Shown here: piece after piece, positions 3,590 to 25,447 of the stretch
Layout: each line of letters begins with the position of its first letter
How positions within the stretch are numbered: the first letter of the stretch is position 1
Virus record (IMG/VR): IMGVR_UViG_2734482783_000014
DNA from: a virus
Taxonomy: Duplodnaviria > Heunggongvirae > Uroviricota > Caudoviricetes
Direction: 5' to 3' (one strand)
DNA length: 25,447 nucleotides
The notes under the pieces: generated by a model
Told to the model about the DNA's origin: nothing
The model's database searches: none
The model's input: only the letters and a program-made list of their open reading frames with translations
Position numbers and translations under genes: made by a program

Positions 3590-4435
3590 ATGGCTACTGT
3601 TGTTTCTTTGATAAACATGAAAGGTGGTGTAGGTAAGTCGACTCTAACTGTAAACTTAGCTTGGCACTACTCATGCTATAATAACTGGAAAAAAAACGTA
3701 CTCGTTGTTGATTTGGATCCGCAATTTAACGCAAGTCAGTACTTAATCGGCACACAAAAATATCAGCAAAATGTCATCATTGATAAAAAACCGACTGTTT
3801 GGGAAATATTTGAGCAGCATACAAGAACACCTATGGGCAAACCGAATAAAGTTGACCCTAACGATGCTATTATTCGCGCCGTAACATTTACAAATGGTTG
3901 CTATATAGATTTATTACCTTCTAGGTTAGAGCTTGCATTATCTTTAAAAAGCCCCGGACAGAAGGTTGAATTACTTCGTAAAGCATTAAAAAAAGTTGAG
4001 GACAAGTATGATCTCATAATTATTGACTGTGCCCCAACCGAATCAATATTAACAACAGCGGCGTATTTAGCTAGTGACTACATACTTGTACCAGTAAAAC
4101 CAGAGTATTTATCAACAATAGGCTTACCATTACTAGTAAATTCAATGAATGACTTTCTTGGGGAACATGAGGATTCTAACTTAAAACTTGCAGGCATTGT
4201 ATTCAATGCCTGCTCAGGATATCAACCAGAAGAAATTAAATCACAAGATAGCGTAAGAGAATTAGCAAAGAAAAATGGCTGGAATGTTTTTGATTCTGAA
4301 ATAATCTATTCAAAATCTTATCCTAAAGGAGCCAGGGAAGGAAAACCTATTTTCAGAACATCATATGCTCGCACTACTTCAGCAAATAACTTTGCTAAAT
4401 TTGCTAATGAGTTCGCTAAAACGATAGGTCTATAA
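3590..4435 (+). CDS. ParA/MinD-family deviant Walker-A ATPase (cargo gene)
   Basis: ATG at 3590 preceded by an AAGGA RBS. The N-terminus MATVVSLINMKGGVGKSTLTVNLA carries the KGGxGK[ST] deviant Walker A motif, and IIIDCAP is a Walker B-like hydrophobic-Asp segment. Markedly AT-rich compared with the flanking tail genes. Confidence 0.8.
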   Translation: MATVVSLINMKGGVGKSTLTVNLAWHYSCYNNWKKNVLVVDLDPQFNASQYLIGTQKYQQNVIIDKKPTVWEIFEQHTRTPMGKPNKVDPNDAIIRAVTFTNGCYIDLLPSRLELALSLKSPGQKVELLRKALKKVEDKYDLIIIDCAPTESILTTAAYLASDYILVPVKPEYLSTIGLPLLVNSMNDFLGEHEDSNLKLAGIVFNACSGYQPEEIKSQDSVRELAKKNGWNVFDSEIIYSKSYPKGAREGKPIFRTSYARTTSANNFAKFANEFAKTIGL

Positions 4436-4437
4436 GT

Positions 4438-4974
4438 ATGACAACTAGCTCAGAGAAAAAAACATTTACTTTGTTGAGTGAGATTTTCTCATTGATTGCA
4501 AAGTATGGAGAAGAAAACTTCTACAATGCCATATCGAAACTCAACGATCCTGAACTTGTTAAGTCATTAAATCAAGTTAAAAGTGCAGCTATCACAAGAA
4601 AGCAAAGTGTAAAGAGCAGCAAGCACATTGTATCCACATCGAAAAAACCTACCGATATGCTTAATATAGATTTGGTAAATAATATCAAAAATCATTTAAG
4701 CAACATTAGAGTTTTCAAAGAAACAAAAGATGTAAGGAGCTATCTCGAAAACCAGAAATTCGTTAACCCTGACTTATTGAACAAAAGAAGTCGCCAGCAA
4801 ATGATCAGCACATTTTGCAAGCAATGTAGCTACCTAACCACTGAGACTTTAGAGTTAGTTATAAGTGAGTTAGAGAGAAAGCCACTTCATGGTCATACTC
4901 ATAAAGATGACAGAAGCCTTGAAAATTGGTCAGATATAATATTAAAAAAAGATAATAAAGCGAACGACATTTAA
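4438..4974 (+). CDS. Hypothetical 178-aa basic protein, translationally coupled partner of the ParA-like ATPase
   Basis: Starts 2 bp after the ParA-like stop with the same AT-rich composition. Lys/Ser-rich, no recognisable motif, no ParB-like signature. Confidence 0.6.
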   Translation: MTTSSEKKTFTLLSEIFSLIAKYGEENFYNAISKLNDPELVKSLNQVKSAAITRKQSVKSSKHIVSTSKKPTDMLNIDLVNNIKNHLSNIRVFKETKDVRSYLENQKFVNPDLLNKRSRQQMISTFCKQCSYLTTETLELVISELERKPLHGHTHKDDRSLENWSDIILKKDNKANDI

Positions 4975-4981
4975 TCAACAA

Positions 4982-5014
4982 GGTCACCAGCTTATCCTTT
5001 CGAATCTGGTGACC
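4982..5014. terminator. Inverted repeat (ggtcaccag ... ctggtgacc), probable bidirectional terminator between the convergent cargo operon and gene S
   Basis: 9-bp perfect stem at 4982..4990 and 5006..5014 with a 15-nt loop, lying between two convergent stop codons. Flanking U-runs are weak. Confidence 0.4.
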
Positions 5015-5061
5015 TATTAAATAAGAAAAAAAATAAAATCCAATAGACTTTATTTTAAGAG

Positions 5062-5511
5062 TTATTTCCAGTTCAATTCTTGAATTAAAGTATCAAGCAC
5101 TATGTCGTGAACCTCTCTATTTCTACCAAGTAGTCTCCTACTTGCATATCTCACCTCCGGTCCTTTGCGACTAACGCGATCACGCAGGCCATAATGATGA
5201 ACACGGGCAATGCGCTGTACCTTACCTTCAAACTGCACGCTGGCAGAATCGGCGCTGGCGGCAGTTTTCAGGTATTTTGTGGTGCGCAGCTTTGCAAACA
5301 TCTGACGTTTGATACGGCCTTTTTTACTGCGTGCTGTTAACCGTCGCGGTTCATAGCTGCTGCCGTCAGGATTGCGCTGCATCCTGATATTCTGCTGCTG
5401 TGTCCGGCGCAGTTCCTGCGCCAGCTGGCGCATCATACGGCTTCTTGCGGCTGGCTCCAGATTCGCCAGCAAGGCACTCAGCCAGTCGTCCACTTTCTGC
5501 AGTTCAGCCAC
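5062..5511 (-). CDS. S: Tail completion protein gpS-like
   Basis: 149-aa ORF (MAELQKVDDWLSALLANLEPAARSRMMRQLAQELRRT...) of P2 gpS size and position. Start is GTG at 5511, overlapping the R stop. Confidence 0.75.
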   Translation of the reverse strand: MAELQKVDDWLSALLANLEPAARSRMMRQLAQELRRTQQQNIRMQRNPDGSSYEPRRLTARSKKGRIKRQMFAKLRTTKYLKTAASADSASVQFEGKVQRIARVHHYGLRDRVSRKGPEVRYASRRLLGRNREVHDIVLDTLIQELNWK

Positions 5512-5935
5512 GTTTCACCGTCCACATTTCTTCAGGTTCATCGGGTTCCGCTACCGCTTCAACGCTCGACACACTGCCGTCAGTACTGACCAGCACCCGC
5601 TCCGTGAGTTGCAGGTTAAGGCTGATATCACAGACATCGTTGCGCAGAATATCCACCTCAAAAGTGAATAATTTTTCCCGTAACGCCGGGTTATTGATGG
5701 CATCGGGCTGGTTATCACGCAGCCACAGCAAAACTGGGGCCATCAGCAGATTCTGGTCGCCGCTGAAATCCTCAATCACCACGTTCAGGGTGTAACGGTA
5801 CTCCCATGACATGGAGCTGGCCCCCGTGGCAACCAGCGAACCGTTATCCACAAACAGATGCAGTTTGTCCGGGTTATTGCGGACATAAGTCACCGCTTTA
5901 TTGAGTGCGTGGCGCAGGGATTGTGGTTTGTTCAC
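5504..5935 (-). CDS. R: Tail completion protein gpR-like
   Basis: ORF in the expected position. GTG at 5935 has an AGGAG RBS; the longer ORF to 5956 begins with TTG and has no RBS. Confidence 0.7.
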   Translation of the reverse strand: MNKPQSLRHALNKAVTYVRNNPDKLHLFVDNGSLVATGASSMSWEYRYTLNVVIEDFSGDQNLLMAPVLLWLRDNQPDAINNPALREKLFTFEVDILRNDVCDISLNLQLTERVLVSTDGSVSSVEAVAEPDEPEEMWTVKRG

Positions 5936-6188
5936 TGTTTCGCTCCTGACACGCAATAATCATGTCCACTTTGTCTGCACAGACCGCCCAGGCGGCCTCC
6001 GTTTCATCCAGCAATGCGTTCAGATCACCGTTAGTGCGCGGCGCTGTCTGATCCAGTCGACACGGCGTCACTCGCGGACAACCACTGACGGTAAGCTGCA
6101 CCTCCGGTGAGTGCCGGACGTTCCCGCAGCCGGATAATGTCAGCAGGCAAAGGAGTATCAGCCCAGCGGCGTAAATCCTCGTTCTCAC
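5898..6188 (-). CDS. lysC: Outer-membrane spanin lipoprotein (LysC/Rz1-like), overlapping the 3' end of lysB
   Basis: N-terminal signal peptide with lipobox LTLSGC. The ORF starts inside lysB in another frame and extends past its stop. GAGGA RBS before GTG at 6188. Confidence 0.65.
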   Translation of the reverse strand: MRTRIYAAGLILLCLLTLSGCGNVRHSPEVQLTVSGCPRVTPCRLDQTAPRTNGDLNALLDETEAAWAVCADKVDMIIACQERNSEQTTIPAPRTQ

Positions 6189-6459
6189 GTTTCAGTTCCT
6201 CAATCCGATGTTGTCGTTGTCTCAGCAGCGCGCTGGTCTGTTCTGCTTCGGCATAGAGCCGCGCCTGCTCCCGGTTATTGGTTTCAGTTAGAATGGACAG
6301 GCTGATAAGCTGGCTGTTGCTCTTTGCCAGTGCCTGGCTTTTGCTCCGCAGCTCGTCTGCCTGCGTGCTGATGGTCTGGCTGGCATCAGCCAGCCGCCAC
6401 GTCTGCCAGCCCAGCGACGCCAGTAATAACGCCAGCACAACCAGCAGCAACCGGTTCAT
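6031..6459 (-). CDS. lysB: Inner-membrane spanin (LysB/Rz-like)
   Basis: N-terminal transmembrane helix (LLLVVLALLLASLGW) followed by a coiled-coil-like, Arg/Glu-rich periplasmic domain. ATG overlaps the lysA stop. Confidence 0.65.
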   Translation of the reverse strand: MNRLLLVVLALLLASLGWQTWRLADASQTISTQADELRSKSQALAKSNSQLISLSILTETNNREQARLYAEAEQTSALLRQRQHRIEELKRENEDLRRWADTPLPADIIRLRERPALTGGAAYRQWLSASDAVSTGSDSAAH

Positions 6460-6833
6460 GCTGCTACCTGTTGCGCCATCTGGTTACGAGTGATCCAGAA
6501 GGCAATAACGGTCAGCAGATAAAATACCAGGGTAATGGCCCACCCCGTCCAGGCGAGACTTACGATAATCAGCAATCGCATAACCCAGCTGATAAATACG
6601 TTTTCTTTTCGGGTAATGCTCTTCAGCAAAGATGCCCTCAACTCCTGCCAGAGCGGGCCGTTCTTAATTAACGCAACCAGTGCTACCGGAATTGCCACCC
6701 ATGTCAGCAGACAGGCTACCCAGACACCGGACGCTGCCAGTACCGGAAAAATCCCCTGTGGATACACCATTGCTGCGATTAACAGCGCCATCCATAACAT
6801 CAGAAACAGTCCGCTGATTAATTTCTTTTTCAT
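6456..6833 (-). CDS. lysA: LysA-like multi-pass membrane protein (lysis timing)
   Basis: Start MKKKLISGLFLML... at 6833, immediately after the K stop. Several hydrophobic helices. The longer ORF to 6905 would overlap K. Confidence 0.55.
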   Translation of the reverse strand: MKKKLISGLFLMLWMALLIAAMVYPQGIFPVLAASGVWVACLLTWVAIPVALVALIKNGPLWQELRASLLKSITRKENVFISWVMRLLIIVSLAWTGWAITLVFYLLTVIAFWITRNQMAQQVAA

Positions 6834-6834
6834 T

Positions 6835-7347
6835 TCAGTTTGCTCCCTGTAAGCACCAGGCCATCTCCCGCGCACGGCGGTTATCCAGCCCCTGATTAAA
6901 CACACCTTTCACATAAACCCAACGCGGCAACTGTCGGCACGCATCTGCCCAGCGCCGCTGATAGAGTAATTTCACCAGTGTGGAACTGCAGGCATTGCCC
7001 GTTCCCACGTTGAAGGCAAACGACACCGTAGCGTCATATACCTTCTGCGGCGGCTGTTGCTTCACACACCTTTCCAGCGCCCGCTCCACACGCAGCACGT
7101 TGGAAATCAGCCCTTCTGCTGCCTGTCGTTCCGTAATGGTTTTGCCGGGAATGACGCCAGACGTGTTACCAATGCCGTCGGTCCAGACACCCGCGCTGCA
7201 CTGATACGGCTGCAGACGACAGCCTTCGTAATCGGCAATCAGTTTCAGCCCCTCCACGGAGGTGTGAAGCTGCTGAAAACCCGGCAGCGTGGTAGCAATA
7301 GCCAGCACAGCCCCGACAAGGCAGCGTTTAACGACTGATGGATTCAT
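6835..7347 (-). CDS. K: Lysozyme (T4-lysozyme-like GH24 fold) with an N-terminal hydrophobic, possibly signal-anchor-release, segment
   Basis: Motif LIADYEGCRLQPYQCSAGVWTDGIGNT fits the Glu...Asp...Thr catalytic pattern of this fold. N-terminus VVKRCLVGAVLAIATTLPG is hydrophobic. Strong GGGAGG RBS before ATG at 7347. Confidence 0.8.
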   Translation of the reverse strand: MNPSVVKRCLVGAVLAIATTLPGFQQLHTSVEGLKLIADYEGCRLQPYQCSAGVWTDGIGNTSGVIPGKTITERQAAEGLISNVLRVERALERCVKQQPPQKVYDATVSFAFNVGTGNACSSTLVKLLYQRRWADACRQLPRWVYVKGVFNQGLDNRRAREMAWCLQGAN

Positions 7348-7543
7348 AGTCCTCCCGCGAGATCTGCCCGTCGCGCAGAAGCTGGTAGGCTTTGTGTTTG
7401 TAGTACCAGTTGATAGCCAGCATCAGCACACCAATCATCAGGCCGCCCAGCGTTGAGGCATCCTTGATGGACAAATCGCCCAGCCAGGCCAGCACGACGG
7501 CGATGCAATACGTGATAAAGGCGCTGATTCGCTCAAGCGTCAT
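7328..7543 (-). CDS. Y: Small two-TM holin (pinholin-like)
   Basis: 71-aa protein with two hydrophobic helices and a charged C-terminus (RDGQISREDYESISR), directly upstream of the lysozyme. Confidence 0.6.
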   Translation of the reverse strand: MTLERISAFITYCIAVVLAWLGDLSIKDASTLGGLMIGVLMLAINWYYKHKAYQLLRDGQISREDYESISR

Positions 7544-13847: not shown

Positions 13848-15098
13848 TTATCGCCATTTTAGATAAAAAGCAAAAAATGGATCAGTAATATGCAACTTTC
13901 GGTCCTCCTTATCCCAATCTATTACAGGAGTTGAAGCTTCTTCCGTAGCAGCTATTTTAGCCATTTTTTCTATAACACGAGTAACCTCATGAGCTTGTGG
14001 AGGAGTATCTTGCACCAGTTCGCGTATGGCTGATCTTAACTCCTCATACTGAATACTTTGCATTCCTGGTTTCATATGTGACAATGCATATAATACAACT
14101 TTATATATATCTACTTCCTCACCACTTTTCAGTTTTCTAGGAATTCTGTCAGTTCGCTGATTAGGGCCACTAGCTAACTTATCAAATACTATTTTCCCAG
14201 TGGATTCTGCAACCTTTCTAAAAATATCATCATCTAAAGAATTAATAACTAACTTACTCGACAAAGTTTCTTTAACATTATTTGCTAAGCATATAGCCTT
14301 GCAAAACTCTTGCATTAAATGAGGACTTCCCAATGATTCATTGGCAATTTTATCAATTACTGAATCACTAACTTCCATGTTTAACAGAGGAAATCCCACT
14401 TTTGCTATTTGTTTTAGTTCATCCATTTCCCACGAAGGCATGGAAATATTTTCTAGCCGTCCGGTAATTTCTTTTTCAACTTTTACAGCATCATACCTTC
14501 GATGTGGAATGGCTATCAGTACAACTGGTACTCCATCAAAAACTAATGGTTTTATCGCTCTAATAAAGTTACCTTGTAGGTCACGATCGAGGTAATGAAA
14601 GTCATCAATTATAAGACTAGACTTGGTTTGAGAGAGAACTTTTAGTGCAGAACTTTTTGCGGATATCGTTCGCGATTTTTTATTACCATTTGACTTTCCA
14701 TCCGTCTGAACTAAACCAGCCTCACCTGTACCTTTAACAACTAATGCACTTGCGGTCCCCGATACCTTACCACTAACTGCAATAGCACTATTTTCTCCAG
14801 AATTAACTTCAATACTATGGTAGCCATTTAGTTTTTCTAATACCTGCTCCCAAATATCATCTTCAGTTGTAATACTCCCACCGTCAATCCATACAACATC
14901 ATCGTCCATGACTGGGAATACCATTCTTGTAATTACAGTCTTACCAGACTTTGTTTGCCCAGTTAAAGTTACTAACTTACATAAATTATCTTTAGCACTC
15001 TCCAGTTTTCCATGAACCTCTCCTTCAGAGCGCTCAACATAAGTCAATTTCGGCATACCGCCTGGCACAAAAACTTGTGAAGCACGTTGTTTATCCAT
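13848..15098 (-). CDS. P-loop NTPase, 416 aa, AAA+/STAND-like (cargo gene)
   Basis: Walker A GQTKSGKT and Walker B-like SSLIIDDFHYL, followed by a largely helical C-terminal half. AT-rich with an AT-rich upstream region at 15100..15190. Sits between Q and the putative cos site. Confidence 0.7.
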   Translation of the reverse strand: MDKQRASQVFVPGGMPKLTYVERSEGEVHGKLESAKDNLCKLVTLTGQTKSGKTVITRMVFPVMDDDVVWIDGGSITTEDDIWEQVLEKLNGYHSIEVNSGENSAIAVSGKVSGTASALVVKGTGEAGLVQTDGKSNGNKKSRTISAKSSALKVLSQTKSSLIIDDFHYLDRDLQGNFIRAIKPLVFDGVPVVLIAIPHRRYDAVKVEKEITGRLENISMPSWEMDELKQIAKVGFPLLNMEVSDSVIDKIANESLGSPHLMQEFCKAICLANNVKETLSSKLVINSLDDDIFRKVAESTGKIVFDKLASGPNQRTDRIPRKLKSGEEVDIYKVVLYALSHMKPGMQSIQYEELRSAIRELVQDTPPQAHEVTRVIEKMAKIAATEEASTPVIDWDKEDRKLHITDPFFAFYLKWR

Positions 15099-15205
15099 GA
15101 ATACTTCCCAATTAACACCGTTCTAGTGAACTACGATTCTAAAATAACATCTGAGCTTGGACTATTAACATTACATGATTTGAGTATTCAAAGCCACAAG
15201 CGCGC

Positions 15206-15224
15206 GCTCGTATCCCCGCCACGC
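15206..15224 (-). other. Candidate cohesive-end (cos) site
   Basis: Minus strand reads GGCGTGGCGGGGATACGAG. The first 13 nt match the 186 cos sequence GGCGTGGCGGGGAAAGCAT as I recall it (P2: GGCGAGGCGGGGAAAGCAC). Orientation relative to Q matches the P2 arrangement. The region is GC-normal between two AT-rich cargo blocks. Confidence 0.4.
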
Positions 15225-15270
15225 CTGCCCGCTTTATGTAGTGGTTTTCATGCAGATGCATGCTCTACGC

Positions 15271-15297
15271 AAAAGCCCGCCAGTTCTGGCGGGCTTT
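15271..15297. terminator. Rho-independent terminator (aaaaGCCCGCCagttctGGCGGGCtttt), bidirectional
   Basis: GC-rich 7-8 bp stem flanked by an A-run and a T-run, immediately downstream of the minus-strand three-gene operon. Confidence 0.55.
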
Positions 15298-15361
15298 TGC
15301 AAAAACGATCCTCAAACGATCATGCGATTTCATGCAGCATAGTCATGCAAAGTAGAAACTG

Positions 15362-15778
15362 CTATTTAACGTCCGGCGTTTGCGCTGTGGGGGATACTTT
15401 TCCATCTAGCGTATTTACAATTGAGAGGGGGTAAATTCCCATTTCAATTCCACAAATCACGTCGTAACGAGCCTGCGCTTTCTCTCGCATTTCTTGAGAA
15501 ACAGGGGACGATGGTGCATTTAAAACTGCTTCGGCTTGCTTCTTCAGAGCTTTCAACCGTCTTTTCAGTTTGATTTCTTGCGGATCAACAGCATAAATCG
15601 TCCATGCAAAAGTAAAAACTTCGCTTAAAAGAATTGACACCATCGGTATTGAAGCAATGTAAAGGTCTTTCCATGTTGGATCTGTAATGAAGCTAGCCAG
15701 CTTTATTAGGAAAAGGCCTACGCCGCCGCCACCAGTAACACCGACTGCTTTACCGCTTGTTTTCTTTTGTTCAGGCAT
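15362..15778 (-). CDS. Small membrane protein with two predicted TM helices (third gene of cargo operon)
   Basis: From ATG at 15778: MPEQKKTSGKAVGVTGGGGVGLFLIKLASFI... plus a second hydrophobic helix IASIPMVSILLSEVFTFAWTIYAV, then a charged C-terminus. Start overlaps the end of the upstream gene by 8 bp. Confidence 0.55.
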   Translation of the reverse strand: MPEQKKTSGKAVGVTGGGGVGLFLIKLASFITDPTWKDLYIASIPMVSILLSEVFTFAWTIYAVDPQEIKLKRRLKALKKQAEAVLNAPSSPVSQEMREKAQARYDVICGIEMGIYPLSIVNTLDGKVSPTAQTPDVK

Positions 15779-16034
15779 GAGAGGCTGACTCCTTCCTCTC
15801 ACGCTTATTTTTCTCTGCTATATCATCGATGAGCTTTATTAACTCATCATCATTGTTTATATAAATATTTGTTTTATAGACATTTTTGTTTGCATCAGTA
15901 TAAGTGATAGAAACTTTTGTTTCGACAATAACTCGATCGAGCAGGCTACGTATAGCCACTCTAGCACCTATAAATATAGCTGGAGCTGCAACAAGCAGCC
16001 CCAACCATCCTAACACACTAATATCTATAGACAT
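15771..16034 (-). CDS. Small single-TM protein, 87 aa (second gene of cargo operon)
   Basis: N-terminal helix ISVLGWLGLLVAAPAIFIGARVAI followed by a polar Asn/Asp/Lys-rich domain. Begins 2 bp after the upstream gene's stop. Confidence 0.55.
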   Translation of the reverse strand: MSIDISVLGWLGLLVAAPAIFIGARVAIRSLLDRVIVETKVSITYTDANKNVYKTNIYINNDDELIKLIDDIAEKNKRERKESASHA

Positions 16035-16036
16035 TT

Positions 16037-16930
16037 TTAATCCGCATCAGGTTTTATTTTTCTATCTTTGGCGGCAAAGTGTCGACCCACTTTGATGATC
16101 GATAACTTTTCGTCTACCTGGCCACCGGAATCTTTCACAATTTTCTTCATCTTCACAGCAAACAATTCGCCAAAAATTTTGGGGGCGTCTGGTCCAGTAA
16201 CAAGCTTGATGAACTCATTATCTTCCATTCTGACATTGCGCTTTTCACCGCCAAACTCAACACGCCAGCCACTTTTTTTGTCAGTATGCGCCGAAACGAA
16301 TGTCACGGTTGTTTCAAATTCGTCAACTTCTTCTTTGGTTTCAAAGAGAACTTTTGGCGACTTAAACTCTTCTGCCTCATCTTTATGAATTTTGAGGATT
16401 TCTTTCTTAGAGGTGCGCGATTTTTTTACCACAAAATTGTCGATACCATCTTGTAACAGAGGCTGTCTGACAAACGCGTCAACAGCCTTACGAATCTCTG
16501 GGGCATTAACGATTTTTTCGACATCTTCAGAGCAAACAATCTCTTCACCATCGACTTTCAGCTTAACTTTGTCACTACCGTTAGCTTTCTCGACTATGTC
16601 GATCTTACGCCCGTTAAGCTTCTTGAGAACCTCTAAAACTGTAGCACCGCCAACGGCTAAAGGAATGGCTGACAAACCTAAAATTTGTACAACATCTTTA
16701 GCATTAGCTAGATGTTGTACAACCTCAATATCAAACCCAAAGGAACCGGCTATCAATTCAGCGTCAACGTTAACTTCAATGTCTCGCCCTCCGTTTACAA
16801 TCTCATTTGCAGAGTAGATAGCCTCACCTAGCCCCTGCAAACTTTTCGCAAACGAAAGAATATCCATCTTATGATCGTCGAGAGCTTTGCCTTGATACAC
16901 AATACTTACTGATTGAGTCTTATCCGCCAT
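16037..16930 (-). CDS. Hypothetical soluble protein, ~297 aa (first gene of cargo operon)
   Basis: Long AT-rich ORF, Lys/Glu/Asp-rich, with no recognisable catalytic motif. ATG at 16930; the tabulated ORF starts at TTG 16951. Confidence 0.6.
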   Translation of the reverse strand: MADKTQSVSIVYQGKALDDHKMDILSFAKSLQGLGEAIYSANEIVNGGRDIEVNVDAELIAGSFGFDIEVVQHLANAKDVVQILGLSAIPLAVGGATVLEVLKKLNGRKIDIVEKANGSDKVKLKVDGEEIVCSEDVEKIVNAPEIRKAVDAFVRQPLLQDGIDNFVVKKSRTSKKEILKIHKDEAEEFKSPKVLFETKEEVDEFETTVTFVSAHTDKKSGWRVEFGGEKRNVRMEDNEFIKLVTGPDAPKIFGELFAVKMKKIVKDSGGQVDEKLSIIKVGRHFAAKDRKIKPDAD

Positions 16931-17066
16931 TGAGTTCAGATCCGTTGCCAATAAAATGCGCGCGATTTTACGCCCATCACTATGTTTAATCTATCTATTA
17001 ATCATTTATCCCTCTAGCTGTCTACTATCGGACTCAAAAAACATGACTCATTACAAACGAAACCTA

Positions 17067-17300
17067 TCAATGCAGCCAGCTGTCGTCTTCCCACACCTTC
17101 TGCATAATTTTCAGCACTTGTTTTCTTTCTTCGTCCAGTTGCAGTCCGGTCAGTTCCACACCGTTAGAGCTACCTTTGCGGATACGAATTACCGTTTTGG
17201 GATACAGGAGGCGCAGATTGCGGTAAAGCTCGGATTCAAGGGCATCCAGGGTAGACTGGCTAATCTTCTGCTCTTTATCGATCATTATTTCAATGCGCAT
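17067..17300 (-). CDS. dinI: DinI-family protein (DNA-damage-inducible protein I-like)
   Basis: From ATG at 17300: MRIEIMIDKEQKISQSTLDALESELYRNLRLLYPKTVIRIRKG...ELTGL...QKVWEDDSW, the DinI pattern (MRIE... start, acidic C-terminus). GAGGTG RBS. Confidence 0.75.
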   Translation of the reverse strand: MRIEIMIDKEQKISQSTLDALESELYRNLRLLYPKTVIRIRKGSSNGVELTGLQLDEERKQVLKIMQKVWEDDSWLH

Positions 17301-17310
17301 AAAAGTCACC

Positions 17311-17499
17311 TCAGCTGATGACATCCATTGAGCGGTTGTATTCGTGGGTTCTGATTTTTGCCATGAGTTCATCTGTCAGTTCAGAAACCCACTGCAGAGC
17401 CAGCCCCTTCTCTTCATCACTACACTCACTAGCCGCTACAAGCTTAAGAAAAAAATCAATGCGCTGTAGCTTCAAAGACTCCAAAAAATAGTCCTGCAT
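17311..17499 (-). CDS. Small SOS-regulated ORF (62 aa), in the position of the 186 tum antirepressor but much shorter
   Basis: Perfect AGGAGG RBS 4 nt before ATG at 17499. A LexA box overlaps the predicted -10 upstream. Function is inferred from position only. Confidence 0.45.
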   Translation of the reverse strand: MQDYFLESLKLQRIDFFLKLVAASECSDEEKGLALQWVSELTDELMAKIRTHEYNRSMDVIS

Positions 17500-23080: not shown

Positions 23081-23284
23081 TTAAGCAGACAAAGCATCAA
23101 CAGTCAGAGCAGCCAGGTTAATCATTACCTTTTCACGTTTTTTGTCTTTACGAAGACGATGACGAGGTAGTCGGCCATCAGCCAACATGTCGTTAATCGT
23201 ATCAATAGAAAGGCCAGTCAGTTCGCTATAACGTTCGATTGTGACATGTGGTGTATTCAGAGTAATTGAAATGTTAGGTGTCAT
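23081..23284 (-). CDS. Apl/Cox-like excisionase-regulator (AlpA-type HTH)
   Basis: 67 aa with an HTH-like segment [25 protein letters not shown] and a basic tail. First gene of the early operon, divergent from the repressor. Confidence 0.6.
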
Positions 23285-23429: not shown

Positions 23430-23999
23430 GTGGATTTCAATAGCGGCGGTAAGAAAGCCATAGAACGTTTAGTTGAAGCATATGGGTTCGGTACTCGTCA
23501 GGCTCTCTGTGATCATTTAGGTGTTTCTAAGAGCACCATGGCAACGCGCTATATGCGTGATATTTTTCCAGCAGATTGGGTAATCCAGTGCGCCCTTGAA
23601 ACGGGCACCTCGCTTAATTGGCTAACAACAGGGCATGGTTCAAAGCAAGCATCAGCAAATACAAATACTATAGAAGTAGAAAAATATTTATTGTCTGATG
23701 GAGCATTGCAGAAAGACGGTTTTTATATTTTTGATAAGGGATTTCTACCCTCTACGTTTAAAAAACCTTTTGTCATCACAGATAACAATTCTGAATTTAT
23801 TTGTGATAAAGAATTTGATGATATACGTGATGGTAAATGGGTAATAAGTATTGATGGCGAAATAACGATCCGTGACATTACTCGTTTACCCGGTGGAAGA
23901 ATCTTCGTCGAGGGTGGAAACAGAGCCTTCGAATGCAAGATAGAAGACATTGAAATAATTGGTAAAATTATAAGTTTAACAGTCAAGTATGTTAAATAG
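23430..23999 (+). CDS. cI: 186-type CI immunity repressor
   Basis: From GTG at 23430 (GGAGG just upstream): ...IERLVEAYGFGTRQALCDHLGVSKSTMATRYMRD...CALETGTSLNWLTTGHG aligns with the recalled 186 CI N-terminal domain (LDRICEAYGF...CALETGANLKWLLTGEG). 189 aa versus 192 in 186. The longer ORF from 23343 has no start support. Confidence 0.75.
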   Translation: MDFNSGGKKAIERLVEAYGFGTRQALCDHLGVSKSTMATRYMRDIFPADWVIQCALETGTSLNWLTTGHGSKQASANTNTIEVEKYLLSDGALQKDGFYIFDKGFLPSTFKKPFVITDNNSEFICDKEFDDIRDGKWVISIDGEITIRDITRLPGGRIFVEGGNRAFECKIEDIEIIGKIISLTVKYVK

Positions 24000-24014
24000 T
24001 ACCGGGAGGAAACT

Positions 24015-24206
24015 ATGCTTGGTAAGGTATTTTTTGTGGTTTTGTCATGTTCTTTGTTATTAAACCCACTAACTACCTATGCTAGAAATTATCCCTGCTC
24101 AGGGAAAAAGGGAGGTGTTTCTCACTGTACCTCAGATGGCAAATTCGTTTGCAATGATGGAACTATTAGTAAATCCAAAAAAATCTGTACTAAAAACTCA
24201 CGATAA
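24015..24206 (+). CDS. Small secreted Cys-containing protein (63 aa) between cI and int
   Basis: Strong GGGAGGA RBS. N-terminal signal-peptide-like segment [23 protein letters not shown], then a ~40-aa mature region with four Cys and many Lys. Confidence 0.5.
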
Positions 24207-24394
24207 CTTTTGTTTTTATATCTGCGTCTAAAATAAAAATGAGCCGCAGGTTAACCGCAAAAGTTACATGCTCACATAGCAAAAAGAATAGCCAACTTCA
24301 TTATGGCTTCAGTGAGATGTATGGTCGTAGGATTTCATACATTGACACTGGTTATACATACAGTAAAAATGCTCTCTACTGGAGGGCATTTTTT

Positions 24395-25447
24395 ATGGCA
24401 GTACGAAAACTCACCACAGGGAAATGGCTTTGCGAATGTTACCCCGCCGGACGAAGTGGGCGTCGTGTGCGTAAACAATTCGCCACCAAAGGCGAAGCTC
24501 TGGCTTTTGAGCGTCACACGATGGAAGAAACCGAATCAAAGCCCTGGCTGGGCGAATCAGTGGATCGTCGAACCCTGAAAGACGTGGTTGAGCTATGGTT
24601 CAAACTACATGGTAAATCTCTGACTGCTGGACAGCATGTCTATGACAAATTGCTGCTGATGGTTGACGCTCTAGGCAATCCTCTTGCAACCGATCTCACC
24701 TCTAAAATGTTTGCCCACTATCGAGATAAACGCCTGACAGGCGAGATCTACTTCAGCGAGAAATGGAAGAAAGGAGCAAGCCCGGTCACCATTAACCTGG
24801 AGCAAAGCTATCTAAGTAGTGTTTTTAGCGAACTATCCCGTCTGGGCGAATGGTCGTATCCGAACCCACTGGAGAACATGCGAAAATTCACCATCGCAGA
24901 AAAAGAGATGGCATGGCTTACCCATGAGCAGATTGTTGAATTGCTGGCTGATTGCAAACGTCAGGACCCAATTCTGGCACTGGTAGTTAAGATATGCTTA
25001 AGCACAGGCGCACGCTGGCGTGAAGCCGTAAATCTTACCCGCTCACAGGTGACCAAATACCGAATTACCTTTGTCAGAACGAAGGGGAAGAAAAACAGAA
25101 GCATCCCTATCAGTAAAGAGCTTTACGAAGAGATCATGGCGCTTGATGGGTTCAATTTCTTCACAGACTGCTATTTTCAATTTTTATCCGTGATGGAAAA
25201 AACGTCTATCGTGCTCCCTCGCGGTCAACTCACACACGTTCTGCGCCATACGTTTGCGGCGCACTTCATGATGTCGGGTGGAAACATTCTGGCCTTACAA
25301 AAAATTCTCGGACACCACGATATAAAAATGACTATGCGTTACGCACATCTGGCACCGGATCATCTGGAAACGGCGCTCCGTTTCAATCCTCTGGCAACGC
25401 TGCCAAGTGGCGACAAAGTGGCGGCAGCGGTTGGCATTACCCCGTAA
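24395..25447 (+). CDS. int: Tyrosine integrase (P2/186 family)
   Basis: ATG at 24395 with a GGAGGG RBS. The C-terminus has the tyrosine-recombinase signature (...RHTFAAHFMMSGGNILALQKILGHHDIKMTMRYAHL...). Stop TAA is the last codon of the window; the longer ORF from 24239 lacks an RBS. Confidence 0.9.
   Translation: MAVRKLTTGKWLCECYPAGRSGRRVRKQFATKGEALAFERHTMEETESKPWLGESVDRRTLKDVVELWFKLHGKSLTAGQHVYDKLLLMVDALGNPLATDLTSKMFAHYRDKRLTGEIYFSEKWKKGASPVTINLEQSYLSSVFSELSRLGEWSYPNPLENMRKFTIAEKEMAWLTHEQIVELLADCKRQDPILALVVKICLSTGARWREAVNLTRSQVTKYRITFVRTKGKKNRSIPISKELYEEIMALDGFNFFTDCYFQFLSVMEKTSIVLPRGQLTHVLRHTFAAHFMMSGGNILALQKILGHHDIKMTMRYAHLAPDHLETALRFNPLATLPSGDKVAAAVGITP

What the first reader, a model, noticed from the sequence alone, without database searches (positions are those of the whole stretch)
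24015..24206. Small secreted four-Cys protein encoded between the repressor and integrase
This 63-aa ORF has a strong RBS and a signal-peptide-like N-terminus. It sits in the lysogenic transcript between cI and int, so it would be expressed in the lysogen. Such genes are typical lysogenic-conversion or exclusion factors acting in the periplasm. I do not recognise the family.
Basis: partly seen in the sequence, partly recalled or inferred. Interest (0 to 1): 0.5.

Follow-up and report, generated by a model that had tools for sequence, protein, structure and literature searches.

The report
Prophage copy of periplasmic mini-protein YdcA
The small ORF is a real, strongly conserved gene for an exported, four-cysteine, lysine-rich mini-protein of the catalogued but uncharacterised YdcA family, carried just after the repressor gene of a 186-like prophage; its function is untested, and a role in blocking incoming foreign DNA is my leading guess.

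Summary
ORF 24015..24206 (+) encodes 63 aa behind a GGGAGG ribosome-binding site, 15 nt after the cI stop. It has a signal-peptide-like N-terminus and four invariant Cys in the 40-aa mature part.

The family is recognisable: YdcA (Pfam PF27300, NCBIfam NF007463, PHROG 6000). RefSeq already names this protein "YdcA family protein". About 630 of 5,426 complete E. coli genomes carry it, including REL606 and BL21.

The mature peptide is under very strong purifying selection, while the signal peptide drifts. Divergent YdcA copies sit directly after divergent cI alleles in other 186-like prophages. Haemophilus phage HP2 has an unannotated copy whose ATG overlaps the cI stop.

The cI-int slot is a cargo and defence hotspot. 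It holds PD-Lambda-1 or a KAP NTPase in relatives, and the periplasmic exclusion protein Glo in Vibrio phage K139.

Two new functional leads emerged. The domain is consistently cationic and is fused to three unrelated secreted nuclease families. It also resembles the lobes of Legionella Dis2, a disulfide-pinned T4SS outer-membrane-cap subunit.

Best guess: a lysogen-expressed periplasmic polyanion (DNA) binder that helps exclude foreign DNA. Function is unproven. The gene is ordinary in kind, with modestly interesting leads.

The parts
23430..23999 (+). cI immunity repressor (189 aa, GTG start as in RefSeq). It is the upstream gene of the lysogenic operon.
   Evidence: Pfam Phage_CI_repr 3.3e-31 and Phage_CI_C 4.7e-29. 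RefSeq annotates 'phage repressor protein CI' at the matching coordinates.
24004..24009 (+). Shine-Dalgarno sequence GGGAGG of the YdcA-like ORF, 5 nt before the ATG.
   Evidence: Read directly from the sequence. It is identical in REL606.
24015..24206 (+). The whole YdcA-family coding sequence (63 aa plus stop).
   Evidence: ORF list; PHROG 6000 1.9e-34; NCBIfam NF007463 115.8 bits above cut-off 93; RefSeq 'YdcA family protein' WP_000900883.1; precomputed Pfam PF27300 'YdcA' on homologues.
24015..24083 (+). Predicted Sec signal peptide (residues 1-23, [23 protein letters not shown]), with cleavage after A23.
   Evidence: Hydropathy and the (-3,-1) rule. Ala at -1 is invariant. 248 of 251 family members look signal-like. 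The sequence drifts freely, pN about 0.5.
24084..24203 (+). Mature 40-aa peptide [40 protein letters not shown]. It has four invariant Cys, 8 Lys and 2 Arg against 2 Asp, and a pI of about 9.5.
   Evidence: Invariant columns P27 C28 S29 K32 G33 G34 C38 F44 C46 D48 G49 S52 S54 K55 C58. Strong purifying selection. AF2 pLDDT of 86-90 over residues 31-50. Charge census.
24204..24266 (+). Long hairpin that starts at the ORF stop codon, inside a strongly structured 188-nt spacer.
   Evidence: RNA fold of 24195-24410: -62.5 kcal/mol, z = -5.9. The hairpin is conserved in REL606.
24342..24393 (+). Conserved pre-int element. It comprises a promoter-like TTGACA-17-AAAAAT (24342-24370) and a 13-bp hairpin (24365-24393) followed by a U run, which buries the int Shine-Dalgarno sequence GGAGGG.
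   Evidence: Promoter scan. Hairpin -17.5 kcal/mol, z = -6.0. The element is conserved, with compensatory stem changes, upstream of the same int type behind different cargo. Homology with other phages starts at about 24335.
24395..25447 (+). Tyrosine integrase (350 aa). The prophage sits next to rcdA in the matching genomes.
   Evidence: Pfam Int_N 3.2e-32 and Phage_integrase 7.2e-22; RefSeq context.
23081..23284 (-). Apl/Cox-like excisionase-repressor, the first gene of the divergent lytic operon. A pR-like promoter lies at 23402->23374 on the minus strand.
   Evidence: PHROG 575 1e-29; promoter scan.

Best explanation
The ORF encodes a prophage-borne member of the YdcA family of small exported proteins.

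Shown or strongly supported:
- It is a real gene under very strong purifying selection.
- It is placed 15 nt after cI, behind a strong ribosome-binding site, inside what is the pL/pE lysogenic operon in phage 186. It should therefore be made together with the repressor in every lysogen.
- Its N-terminus is a Sec signal peptide cleaved after A23. This releases a 40-residue, lysine-rich peptide (about 4.3 kDa) with four invariant cysteines.

Inferred:
- The four Cys form two disulfides in the periplasm, giving a compact cationic mini-domain.
- The same domain is almost always cationic. In other bacteria it is fused, directly after the signal peptide, to three unrelated secreted nuclease families. 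I therefore infer that it binds a polyanion, most likely DNA, in the cell envelope.
- As a stand-alone protein made by a lysogen, in a slot that otherwise carries exclusion and defence genes, its most likely job is to interfere with foreign DNA crossing the periplasm. That would be superinfection exclusion, or a block to other DNA uptake.

The identity, export and operon steps are about 0.9 likely. The DNA-binding and exclusion step is a hypothesis.
For: Identity: PHROG 6000; NF007463 above its curated cut-off; RefSeq name; PF27300 'YdcA' on all close homologues.

Real gene: the mature part shows 9 synonymous and 1 non-synonymous difference against REL606. Against L009 and L013, pS is 0.86-0.89 and pN is 0.04-0.07. 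The signal peptide has pN of about 0.5.

Export: signal-peptide anatomy, invariant Ala at -1, and 248 of 251 members signal-like. E. coli YdcA is described as having a signal sequence and predicted periplasmic (PMC11340327).

Operon membership:
- In 186, cI abuts int in the annotated lysogenic operon.
- YdcA copies sit 15-53 nt after cI alleles that are only 33-85% identical, and 2-11 nt before the next gene.
- In HP2 the ATG overlaps the cI stop.

Accessory slot:
- 186 lacks the gene.
- vB_EcoM-813R9 has PD-Lambda-1 in its place, as do 164 E. coli genomes.
- L009 adds a PDC-S20 KAP NTPase.
- K139 has periplasmic Glo, 'involved in phage exclusion', in the same slot.
- Rousset et al. report a cI-int defence hotspot in K139-like phages (PMC9122126).
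- Acinetobacter prophage copies sit in a tail-module island with TA modules.

Polyanion/DNA lead:
- Median net charge is +4 over 35-36 residues, with five conserved basic positions.
- Lys-rich tails and linkers occur in longer members.
- Fusions are to Endonuclease_NS (3 members), SNase (1) and PLDc_2 (1). These five are the strongest extra-domain matches among 149 representatives; the other families hit are DUF4124 (2), PBCV_basic_adap (2), VasL (1) and TerY_C (1).
Against: - There is no experimental function for any YdcA-family protein. E. coli ydcA is 'function unknown'.
- The one reported phenotype, 3-hydroxypropionate sensitivity of delta-ydcA in E. coli W (PMC7642389), points to envelope or stress physiology rather than DNA.
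- There is no match to any PADLOC defence model.
- The only relative with a solved structure, Dis2, is a protein-protein docking subunit of a T4SS, not a known DNA binder.
- The nuclease fusions could instead mean that the domain anchors enzymes to an envelope component.
- Core chromosomal copies exist (E. coli K-12, Moraxella bovoculi), so the function need not concern phages.
- Expression in the lysogen is inferred from operon structure, not measured. The signal peptide was judged by rules, not by SignalP.
Confidence: 0.35

Rival explanations
1. Envelope-docking or host-fitness factor. The mature peptide binds an outer-membrane-proximal protein complex, lipoprotein, LPS or peptidoglycan, as the homologous lobes of Legionella Dis2 dock onto DotC, DotD and DotK under the outer membrane. 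It would change envelope properties such as stress or acid tolerance, or surface structures. This would be lysogenic conversion that benefits the host, not DNA exclusion.
For: - Dis2 is the top PDB hit by mature-only profile (E 3.5e-4), by hhalign (84%, E 7e-6) and by Foldseek on the AF2 model (E 0.28, 37-38% identity).
- A close relative of the Dis2 sequence (95-96% identical over the aligned half of the query) carries a precomputed PF27300 hit.
- Dis2 lies near the outer membrane, is pinned by disulfides, and contacts DotK, DotC and DotD (PMC8486379 and PMC12716638).
- Delta-ydcA is sensitive to 3-HP, and ydcA is reported to be up-regulated at pH 5.
- Chromosomal, non-prophage copies exist.
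Against: - Dis2 lobes have lost most of the conserved lysines, so they may be a derived use of the fold.
- The fusions are concentrated on nucleases rather than spread over many kinds of periplasmic enzyme.
- The gene is enriched on phages and small mobilisable plasmids and sits in defence hotspots.
Confidence: 0.3
2. Secreted cationic antimicrobial or bacteriocin-like peptide used by the lysogen against competitors.
For: The mature product is a small, disulfide-rich, strongly cationic peptide, and it is carried on mobile elements.
Against: - There is no dedicated exporter, immunity or processing gene next to it in any context examined.
- Sec export alone ends in the periplasm.
- A paralogue is a harmless chromosomal gene in E. 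coli K-12.
- Extreme sequence conservation is unusual for bacteriocins.
Confidence: 0.05
3. The protein itself is unimportant. The ORF would serve as a translated spacer that couples or tunes expression of downstream int or cargo, or it is a hitch-hiking remnant.
For: There is tight spacing or overlap with neighbours in some relatives: 2 nt to int in L013, and the ATG overlaps the cI stop in HP2.
Against: - The amino-acid sequence of the mature part is conserved at saturated synonymous divergence.
- The same domain is conserved in chromosomes, plasmids and siphovirus tail modules, with no cI or int nearby.
- In this window, 188 nt and a hairpin separate it from int.
Confidence: 0.03

Closest known systems
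E. coli K-12 YdcA (b1419; Pfam PF27300, NCBIfam PRK10040 group)
   Same: The architecture is the same: a signal peptide followed by one 35-40-aa domain with the motif PCSGxKGG(V/I)SHC...KFVCNDGxISxSKKxC and four Cys. Mature regions align throughout, and the DNA is 78% identical over 87 nt. The window protein passes the curated cut-off of the sister model NF007463.
   Different: The K-12 gene is chromosomal, between cybB/rydC and hokB, with its own regulation. This copy is prophage cargo behind cI. The signal peptides are unrelated in sequence. The window protein scores below cut-off on the K-12-type model NF007462 (68.5 bits against 118), so it is a paralogous subfamily. Neither protein has a known function.
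Glo of Vibrio phage K139 (periplasmic protein involved in phage exclusion)
   Same: Same virus family (Peduoviridae), same slot (PL -> cI -> ... -> glo -> int), and same predicted compartment. It is made from the lysogenic operon. This is the best precedent for what the window gene may work like.
   Different: There is no sequence relationship (hhalign probability 0.1%). Glo is 137 aa and is not a four-Cys mini-domain. An exclusion phenotype is documented for Glo only.
Dis2 (Lpg0823) of the Legionella pneumophila Dot/Icm T4SS outer-membrane cap (PDB 7MUC/7MUD chain AN)
   Same: Each Dis2 lobe shares the pattern C-S-K-x-GG-(I/V)-x-x-C ... (L/V)-V-C-N-(N/D)-G-x-x-S. It is exported, disulfide-pinned and lies under the outer membrane. 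It is the top PDB hit by three methods.
Prophage morons and defence cargo in P2-like hotspots (e.g. PD-Lambda-1, PDC-S20, old, tin)
   Same: It occupies a variable slot that holds these systems in sister prophages. It is present or absent among close relatives, and its GC content is low (35% against 50% for the window).
   Different: It is not a recognised defence protein. It has no promoter or terminator of its own. It is periplasmic rather than cytoplasmic.

Membership tests
YdcA family (Pfam PF27300 / NCBIfam NF007463 PRK10040.1-2 / PHROG 6000) | Profile-HMM score above the curated threshold | tested here: met
   NF007463 scores 115.8 bits against a cut-off of 93, covering residues 5-63 over profile positions 1-58 of 58. 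PHROG 6000 scores 1.9e-34. The 98%-identical cluster representative carries PF27300. The local Pfam copy lacks PF27300.
YdcA family | One mini-domain with four invariant Cys and the PCSGxKGG...FxCxDGxxSxSKKxC motif | tested here: met
   All 16 invariant columns of a 28-30-sequence alignment are present in the window protein.
YdcA family | N-terminal Sec signal peptide immediately before the domain | tested here: met
   Rule-based check: basic n-region, hydrophobic core of 2.7, T-Y-A cleavage site. 248 of 251 members share this layout. SignalP itself was not available.
YdcA family | Periplasmic location and disulfide bonding of the mature peptide | not testable with these tools
   Support is indirect only. 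Dis2 lobes are disulfide-bonded in the cryo-EM map (PMC8486379). YdcA is predicted to be periplasmic (PMC11340327).
Dis2 (Lpg0823) T4SS outer-membrane-cap subunit | Sequence and fold similarity to a Dis2 lobe | tested here: inconclusive
   [not shown]
Dis2 (Lpg0823) T4SS outer-membrane-cap subunit | Two lobes pinned by five disulfides; part of a Dot/Icm T4SS | tested here: not met
   The window protein has a single lobe and four Cys. The surrounding genes are prophage genes, and no T4SS genes were seen.
K139 Glo-type periplasmic exclusion protein | Encoded between cI and int in the lysogenic operon of a Peduoviridae phage, with a signal peptide | tested here: met
   K139 annotation compared with the window layout.
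K139 Glo-type periplasmic exclusion protein | Sequence homology to Glo | tested here: not met
   hhalign probability is 0.1%.
K139 Glo-type periplasmic exclusion protein | Superinfection-exclusion phenotype | not testable with these tools
   This needs plating assays on strains with and without the gene.
Known anti-phage defence systems (PADLOC-DB 2.0) | Match to a defence-protein model | tested here: not met
   There were no hits at E <= 0.01. The neighbours in sister prophages do hit PD-Lambda-1 and PDC-S20.
Bacterial lipoprotein | Conserved lipobox Cys at the end of the signal peptide | tested here: not met
   C12 follows V-L-S, but only 11 residues from the N-terminus, and it is not conserved in homologues. 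The conserved cleavage site is A23.
Moron (independently expressed prophage cargo) | Presence/absence among close relatives, deviant composition, and its own promoter and terminator | tested here: inconclusive
   Presence/absence is met. GC is 35% against 50%, but the low-GC tract also covers the cI C-terminus. There is no promoter of its own, because the gene is 15 nt after cI.

The most novel reading that the evidence does not exclude
The YdcA domain would be an unrecognised, disulfide-stabilised, cationic DNA-binding module of the Gram-negative periplasm. It would be the substrate-binding domain of several secreted nucleases and the building block of Legionella Dis2. Temperate phages (186-like, HP2-like, and Moraxella and Acinetobacter siphoviruses) and small plasmids would deploy the free domain to intercept DNA in transit through the envelope. 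That would make it a new class of superinfection-exclusion or anti-uptake factor, expressed with the repressor.
Probability: 0.2. Interest if true: 0.6.

Novelty: already known. Interest (0 to 1): 0.33.

Why it matters
As it stands, this is a catalogued family of unknown function sitting where prophage accessory genes are expected, so the finding itself is ordinary. It is worth a small experiment for four reasons:

- The 36-aa core is conserved far better than the repressor and integrase on either side of it (for example 95% against 45% and 53% in L013).
- The gene is present in about 12% of complete E. coli genomes, including the laboratory B strains.
- It recurs on unrelated mobile elements across Gamma-, Beta- and Alphaproteobacteria.
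- Two leads were not found in the papers read here: fusion to three nuclease families, and similarity to Dis2. Its authors describe Dis2 as Legionella-specific and without structural relatives.

A simple exclusion and DNA-binding test in BL21 or REL606 could give a function to YdcA, to PHROG 6000 and to Dis2 at once.

Tried and rejected
- The local Pfam copy gave only a sub-threshold hit, GULLO2-like_3rd (E 0.075). PF27300 is newer than that copy.
- DUF3761 circular-permutation idea (recalled from memory: CNDGT.S.S...CS.HGGV). Neither the native protein nor an artificial tandem copy hit DUF3761. Rejected.
- LDL-receptor class A and plant proteinase-inhibitor hits in the PDB (E 0.01-0.1). I judge these to be Cys-pattern noise.
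- Lipoprotein reading of C12: rejected, because the Cys is not conserved and lies too close to the N-terminus.
- Conserved downstream partner: the genes after YdcA in HP2, M. bovoculi, Mcat17 and the Acinetobacter phages are unrelated to each other.
- The name 'Conjugal transfer protein' in UniRef appears to be a propagated label. On a 3.9-kb Acinetobacter MOBQ plasmid the gene merely neighbours a TraD-like gene.
- Rfam on 23900-24500 gave only a chance-level Phe_leader hit (E 0.3).
- A literature search for ydcA found no functional study.
- The second broad protein search listed only single-domain members among its best 120, so it added no architecture census.

Full report
**1. What is in the sequence**

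The ORF is exactly as described: 24015..24206 on the + strand, ATG to TAA, 63 aa. Its sequence is [63 protein letters not shown].

- A GGGAGG Shine-Dalgarno sequence lies 5 nt upstream of the ATG. The cI stop codon is only 15 nt upstream.
- The neighbours are cI (23430..23999; Phage_CI_repr and Phage_CI_C) and a tyrosine integrase (24395..25447). An Apl/Cox-like gene and a CII (CP76) gene lie on the other strand. The region is therefore a 186-type lysis-lysogeny switch.
- The ORF has 35% G+C against 50% for the whole window. That low-GC tract also covers the 3' half of cI and the spacer up to about 24335.

**2. It is a real gene of a recognisable family**

- The protein matches PHROG 6000 (1.9e-34, full length).
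- It matches NCBIfam NF007463 (PRK10040.1-2) at 115.8 bits, above the curated cut-off of 93.
- The identical DNA in E. coli N2250 is annotated by RefSeq as 'YdcA family protein' WP_000900883.1. There it lies between 'phage repressor protein CI' and 'phage integrase', in a prophage next to rcdA.
- Homologues carry a precomputed Pfam hit to PF27300, which is named YdcA. The local Pfam copy predates that model.
- The ORF is present at 80% coverage or more in 628 of 5,426 complete E. coli genomes, including REL606, BL21 and HS. The same number of genomes contain the whole cI-ORF-int block.

Codon-level comparison leaves no doubt that the gene is translated:

| Comparison | Region | Result |
|---|---|---|
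| Window vs REL606 | mature | 9 synonymous, 1 non-synonymous difference |
| Window vs L009 and L013 | mature | pS 0.86-0.89 (saturated), pN 0.04-0.07 |
| Several pairs | signal peptide | pN about 0.5, hydrophobic character kept |

**3. Export**

No SignalP-type tool was available, so I used rules and comparative data.

- The N-terminus has a basic residue (K4), a 12-residue hydrophobic core (9-mer hydropathy up to 2.7), a helix breaker (P18) and T-Y-A at positions -3 to -1.
- In an alignment of 30 homologues, the Ala at -1 is invariant even though the rest of the leader is not alignable.
- Of 251 family members with the domain near the N-terminus, 248 have a hydrophobic core plus a (-3,-1) site. 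In most, the site lies 2-3 residues before the invariant Pro-Cys. 238 have a basic n-region.
- C12 is a non-conserved residue of the leader, so the protein is not a lipoprotein.
- The predicted mature peptide is 40 aa with four invariant Cys, eight Lys, two Arg and two Asp.
- The literature describes E. coli YdcA (57 aa) as having a signal sequence and being predicted periplasmic, with unknown function (PMC11340327).

**4. Position and expression**

In phage 186 itself, cI and int abut. The record annotates pL and the CII-activated pE as promoters of the 'lysogenic operon'. Phage 186 has no YdcA homologue. In this window the ORF is inserted between those two genes. With 15 nt after cI there is no room for a promoter or terminator, so co-transcription with cI is the natural inference. 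It was not measured.

The same arrangement recurs with very different partners:

| Locus | Layout | cI identity to window | int identity to window | YdcA mature identity to window |
|---|---|---|---|---|
| L009 | cI-YdcA-KAP NTPase-int | 65% | 98% | 92% |
| L013-L016 | cI-YdcA-int | 45% | 53% | 95% |

In these loci the gaps to the next gene are 2-11 nt.

In Haemophilus phage HP2 (and also S2), a 60-aa homologue with a full signal peptide is not annotated. Its ATG overlaps the cI stop codon, and it precedes orf1-int.

The pairing of repressor and YdcA is therefore old or repeatedly re-created. The mature peptide is conserved far better than either neighbour.

Downstream, the window has a 188-nt spacer that is unusually structured (z = -5.9). 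It ends in a 13-bp hairpin plus U-run that abuts the int ATG and buries its Shine-Dalgarno sequence. This last 60 nt is conserved in front of the same int type behind different cargo, with compensatory changes in the stem. Lysogenic transcripts may therefore often stop after the YdcA gene.

**5. The slot is an accessory and defence hotspot**

- With the same integrase and attachment site, phage vB_EcoM-813R9 carries a 558-aa DUF4041/T5orf172 protein in place of YdcA. This protein matches PD-Lambda-1 (3e-120) and occurs in 164 E. coli genomes.
- The KAP NTPase that follows YdcA in L009 matches candidate system PDC-S20 (1e-171). It occurs in 9 genomes.
- Vibrio phage K139, also in Peduoviridae, has PL-cI-orf2-glo-int. 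Glo is annotated 'periplasmic protein; involved in phage exclusion'. Glo is unrelated in sequence to YdcA.
- Rousset et al. describe a defence hotspot between cI and int in K139-like phages (PMC9122126). A 2026 survey lists an integrase-primase hotspot in P2-like prophages (PMC13586616).

Outside Peduoviridae, YdcA genes occur in several other settings:

- Moraxella and Acinetobacter siphovirus genomes, between the tail tube/chaperone genes and the tape-measure gene. In Acinetobacter this is an island with HicAB, SocA/Panacea and anti-repressor genes.
- A 3.9-kb MOBQ plasmid and 50-126-kb Acinetobacter plasmids.
- Ordinary chromosomal genes in E. coli K-12 (between cybB/rydC and hokB) and in Moraxella bovoculi.

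**6. Leads to mechanism**

An exhaustive profile search found 463 clusters (50% identity) at E <= 1e-3.

- The domain occurs singly, in tandem (two or three copies), and as the first domain after the signal peptide in longer proteins.
- Among the 149 best representatives, eight other Pfam families were matched at E <= 0.001. The five strongest are nuclease domains from three unrelated superfamilies: Endonuclease_NS (3 members), SNase (1) and PLDc_2 (1). The remaining families are DUF4124 (2), PBCV_basic_adap (2), VasL (1), TerY_C (1) and Endonuclea_NS_2 (1), the last being a weak second match on one of the Endonuclease_NS proteins.
- Across 223 distinct domains the median net charge is +4 over 35-36 residues. 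Basic residues are conserved at five positions (K31, K32, K43, K55, K56 in window numbering).
- Longer members often add Lys-rich tails.

This pattern is what one expects of a polyanion-binding, most simply DNA-binding, accessory domain. It is an inference from domain fusions, not a demonstration.

The second lead is structural.

- The AF2 model (mean pLDDT 77; 86-90 over residues 31-50) has as its best Foldseek PDB match chain AN of 7MUC/7MUD, with 37-38% identity and E 0.28-0.67.
- A profile of mature regions only, which avoids signal-peptide inflation, also ranks that chain first in the PDB (E 3.5e-4), with both of its lobes matched.
- hhalign gives 84% probability and E 7e-6.
- A close relative of that chain carries a precomputed PF27300 hit.

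The chain is Dis2 (Lpg0823) of the Legionella Dot/Icm T4SS outer-membrane cap. It has two similar lobes pinned by five disulfides near the outer membrane, and it contacts DotK, DotC and DotD. It is dispensable for assembly, with subtle effects on translocation. Its authors report no structural relatives and call it Legionella-specific (PMC8486379 and PMC12716638).

**7. Most likely mechanism and rivals**

Shown or well supported: the protein is made with cI, exported by Sec, and cleaved after A23. The invariant four-Cys core is under strong constraint.

Inferred: the Cys residues form two periplasmic disulfides, and the cationic core binds a polyanion.

My leading hypothesis (about one in three) is that it binds DNA in the envelope and hinders entry of foreign DNA. 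That would make it a superinfection-exclusion factor analogous in position and compartment to K139 Glo.

Nearly as likely is an envelope-docking or fitness role modelled on Dis2. This fits the only reported ydcA phenotype, 3-hydroxypropionate sensitivity, and the reported acid induction (PMC7642389).

A bacteriocin-like role is unlikely, and the data argue against a mere translated spacer (see the rival explanations).

**8. Comparison with what is known, and novelty**

The gene is a member of the YdcA family: all sequence-defined features that I could test are met. It works like, but is not homologous to, Glo. It is not a member of any PADLOC defence family.

The exact protein is already annotated in RefSeq and clustered in PHROGs and Pfam, so the feature itself is already known, although its function is not. 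In the papers I read, I did not find:

- the tight and widespread cI-YdcA linkage, including the unannotated HP2 and S2 genes;
- the nuclease fusions;
- the Dis2 connection.

**9. Verdict**

Interest is low to moderate (0.33). It is an ordinary kind of prophage cargo, with a cheap and potentially informative experiment attached.

Noticed in passing
window 24335-24394: A roughly 60-nt element sits directly upstream of int and is conserved behind different cargo genes. It has a promoter-like TTGACA-17-AAAAAT and a 13-bp hairpin plus U-run (24365-24393) that abuts the int ATG and sequesters its Shine-Dalgarno sequence. The stem shows compensatory changes in vB_EcoM-813R9 and L009. It could be a terminator that insulates int from the lysogenic transcript, or a translational control of int.
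   Followed up: partly
window 24204-24266: A long hairpin begins at the stop codon of the YdcA ORF, and the whole 188-nt spacer folds far better than shuffled controls (z = -5.9). There is no Rfam family match; the only hit is a chance-level Phe_leader at E 0.3.
   Followed up: partly
window 13848-16951 (- strand): Two candidate anti-phage genes lie in the classical P2 hotspot between the portal and replication genes. One is a 416-aa AAA_22 protein matching PDC-S59 (4.6e-32). The other is a 304-aa protein matching PDC-S42 (7.8e-44). A DinI-like gene lies at 17067-17372.
   Followed up: partly
[not shown]
   Followed up: yes
L006 804-2480 (vB_EcoM-813R9) and L009 5198-6529: The cI-int slot of sister prophages holds PD-Lambda-1 (164 E. 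coli genomes) or YdcA plus a PDC-S20 KAP NTPase (9 genomes). L015 and L016 carry an AAA_15/AAA_21 ATPase (HEC-04-like) just after int.
   Followed up: partly
L023-L026 (Acinetobacter baumannii prophages), about 4400-7400: A cargo island lies inside the tail module, between the tail tube/YdaY genes and the tape-measure gene. YdcA and a DUF4236 protein recur there (DUF4236 in three of the four loci), beside variable HicAB, SocA/Panacea, DUF4760 and anti-repressor genes.
   Followed up: no
P0056, P0058, P0060, P0062 (101-105-aa proteins; P0056 is from Herbaspirillum): These members have a second C-terminal Cys-rich module (C.C...YC(T/A)GPRGG.YC) after the YdcA domain. It has no Pfam match.
   Followed up: no
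NZ_CP148400.1 and NZ_CP148585.1 (55-kb records labelled as E. coli plasmids): The whole cI-YdcA-int block is at 99.3% identity on records labelled as plasmids from single-cell assemblies. They may be excised or circularised prophage, or assembly artefacts.
   Followed up: no
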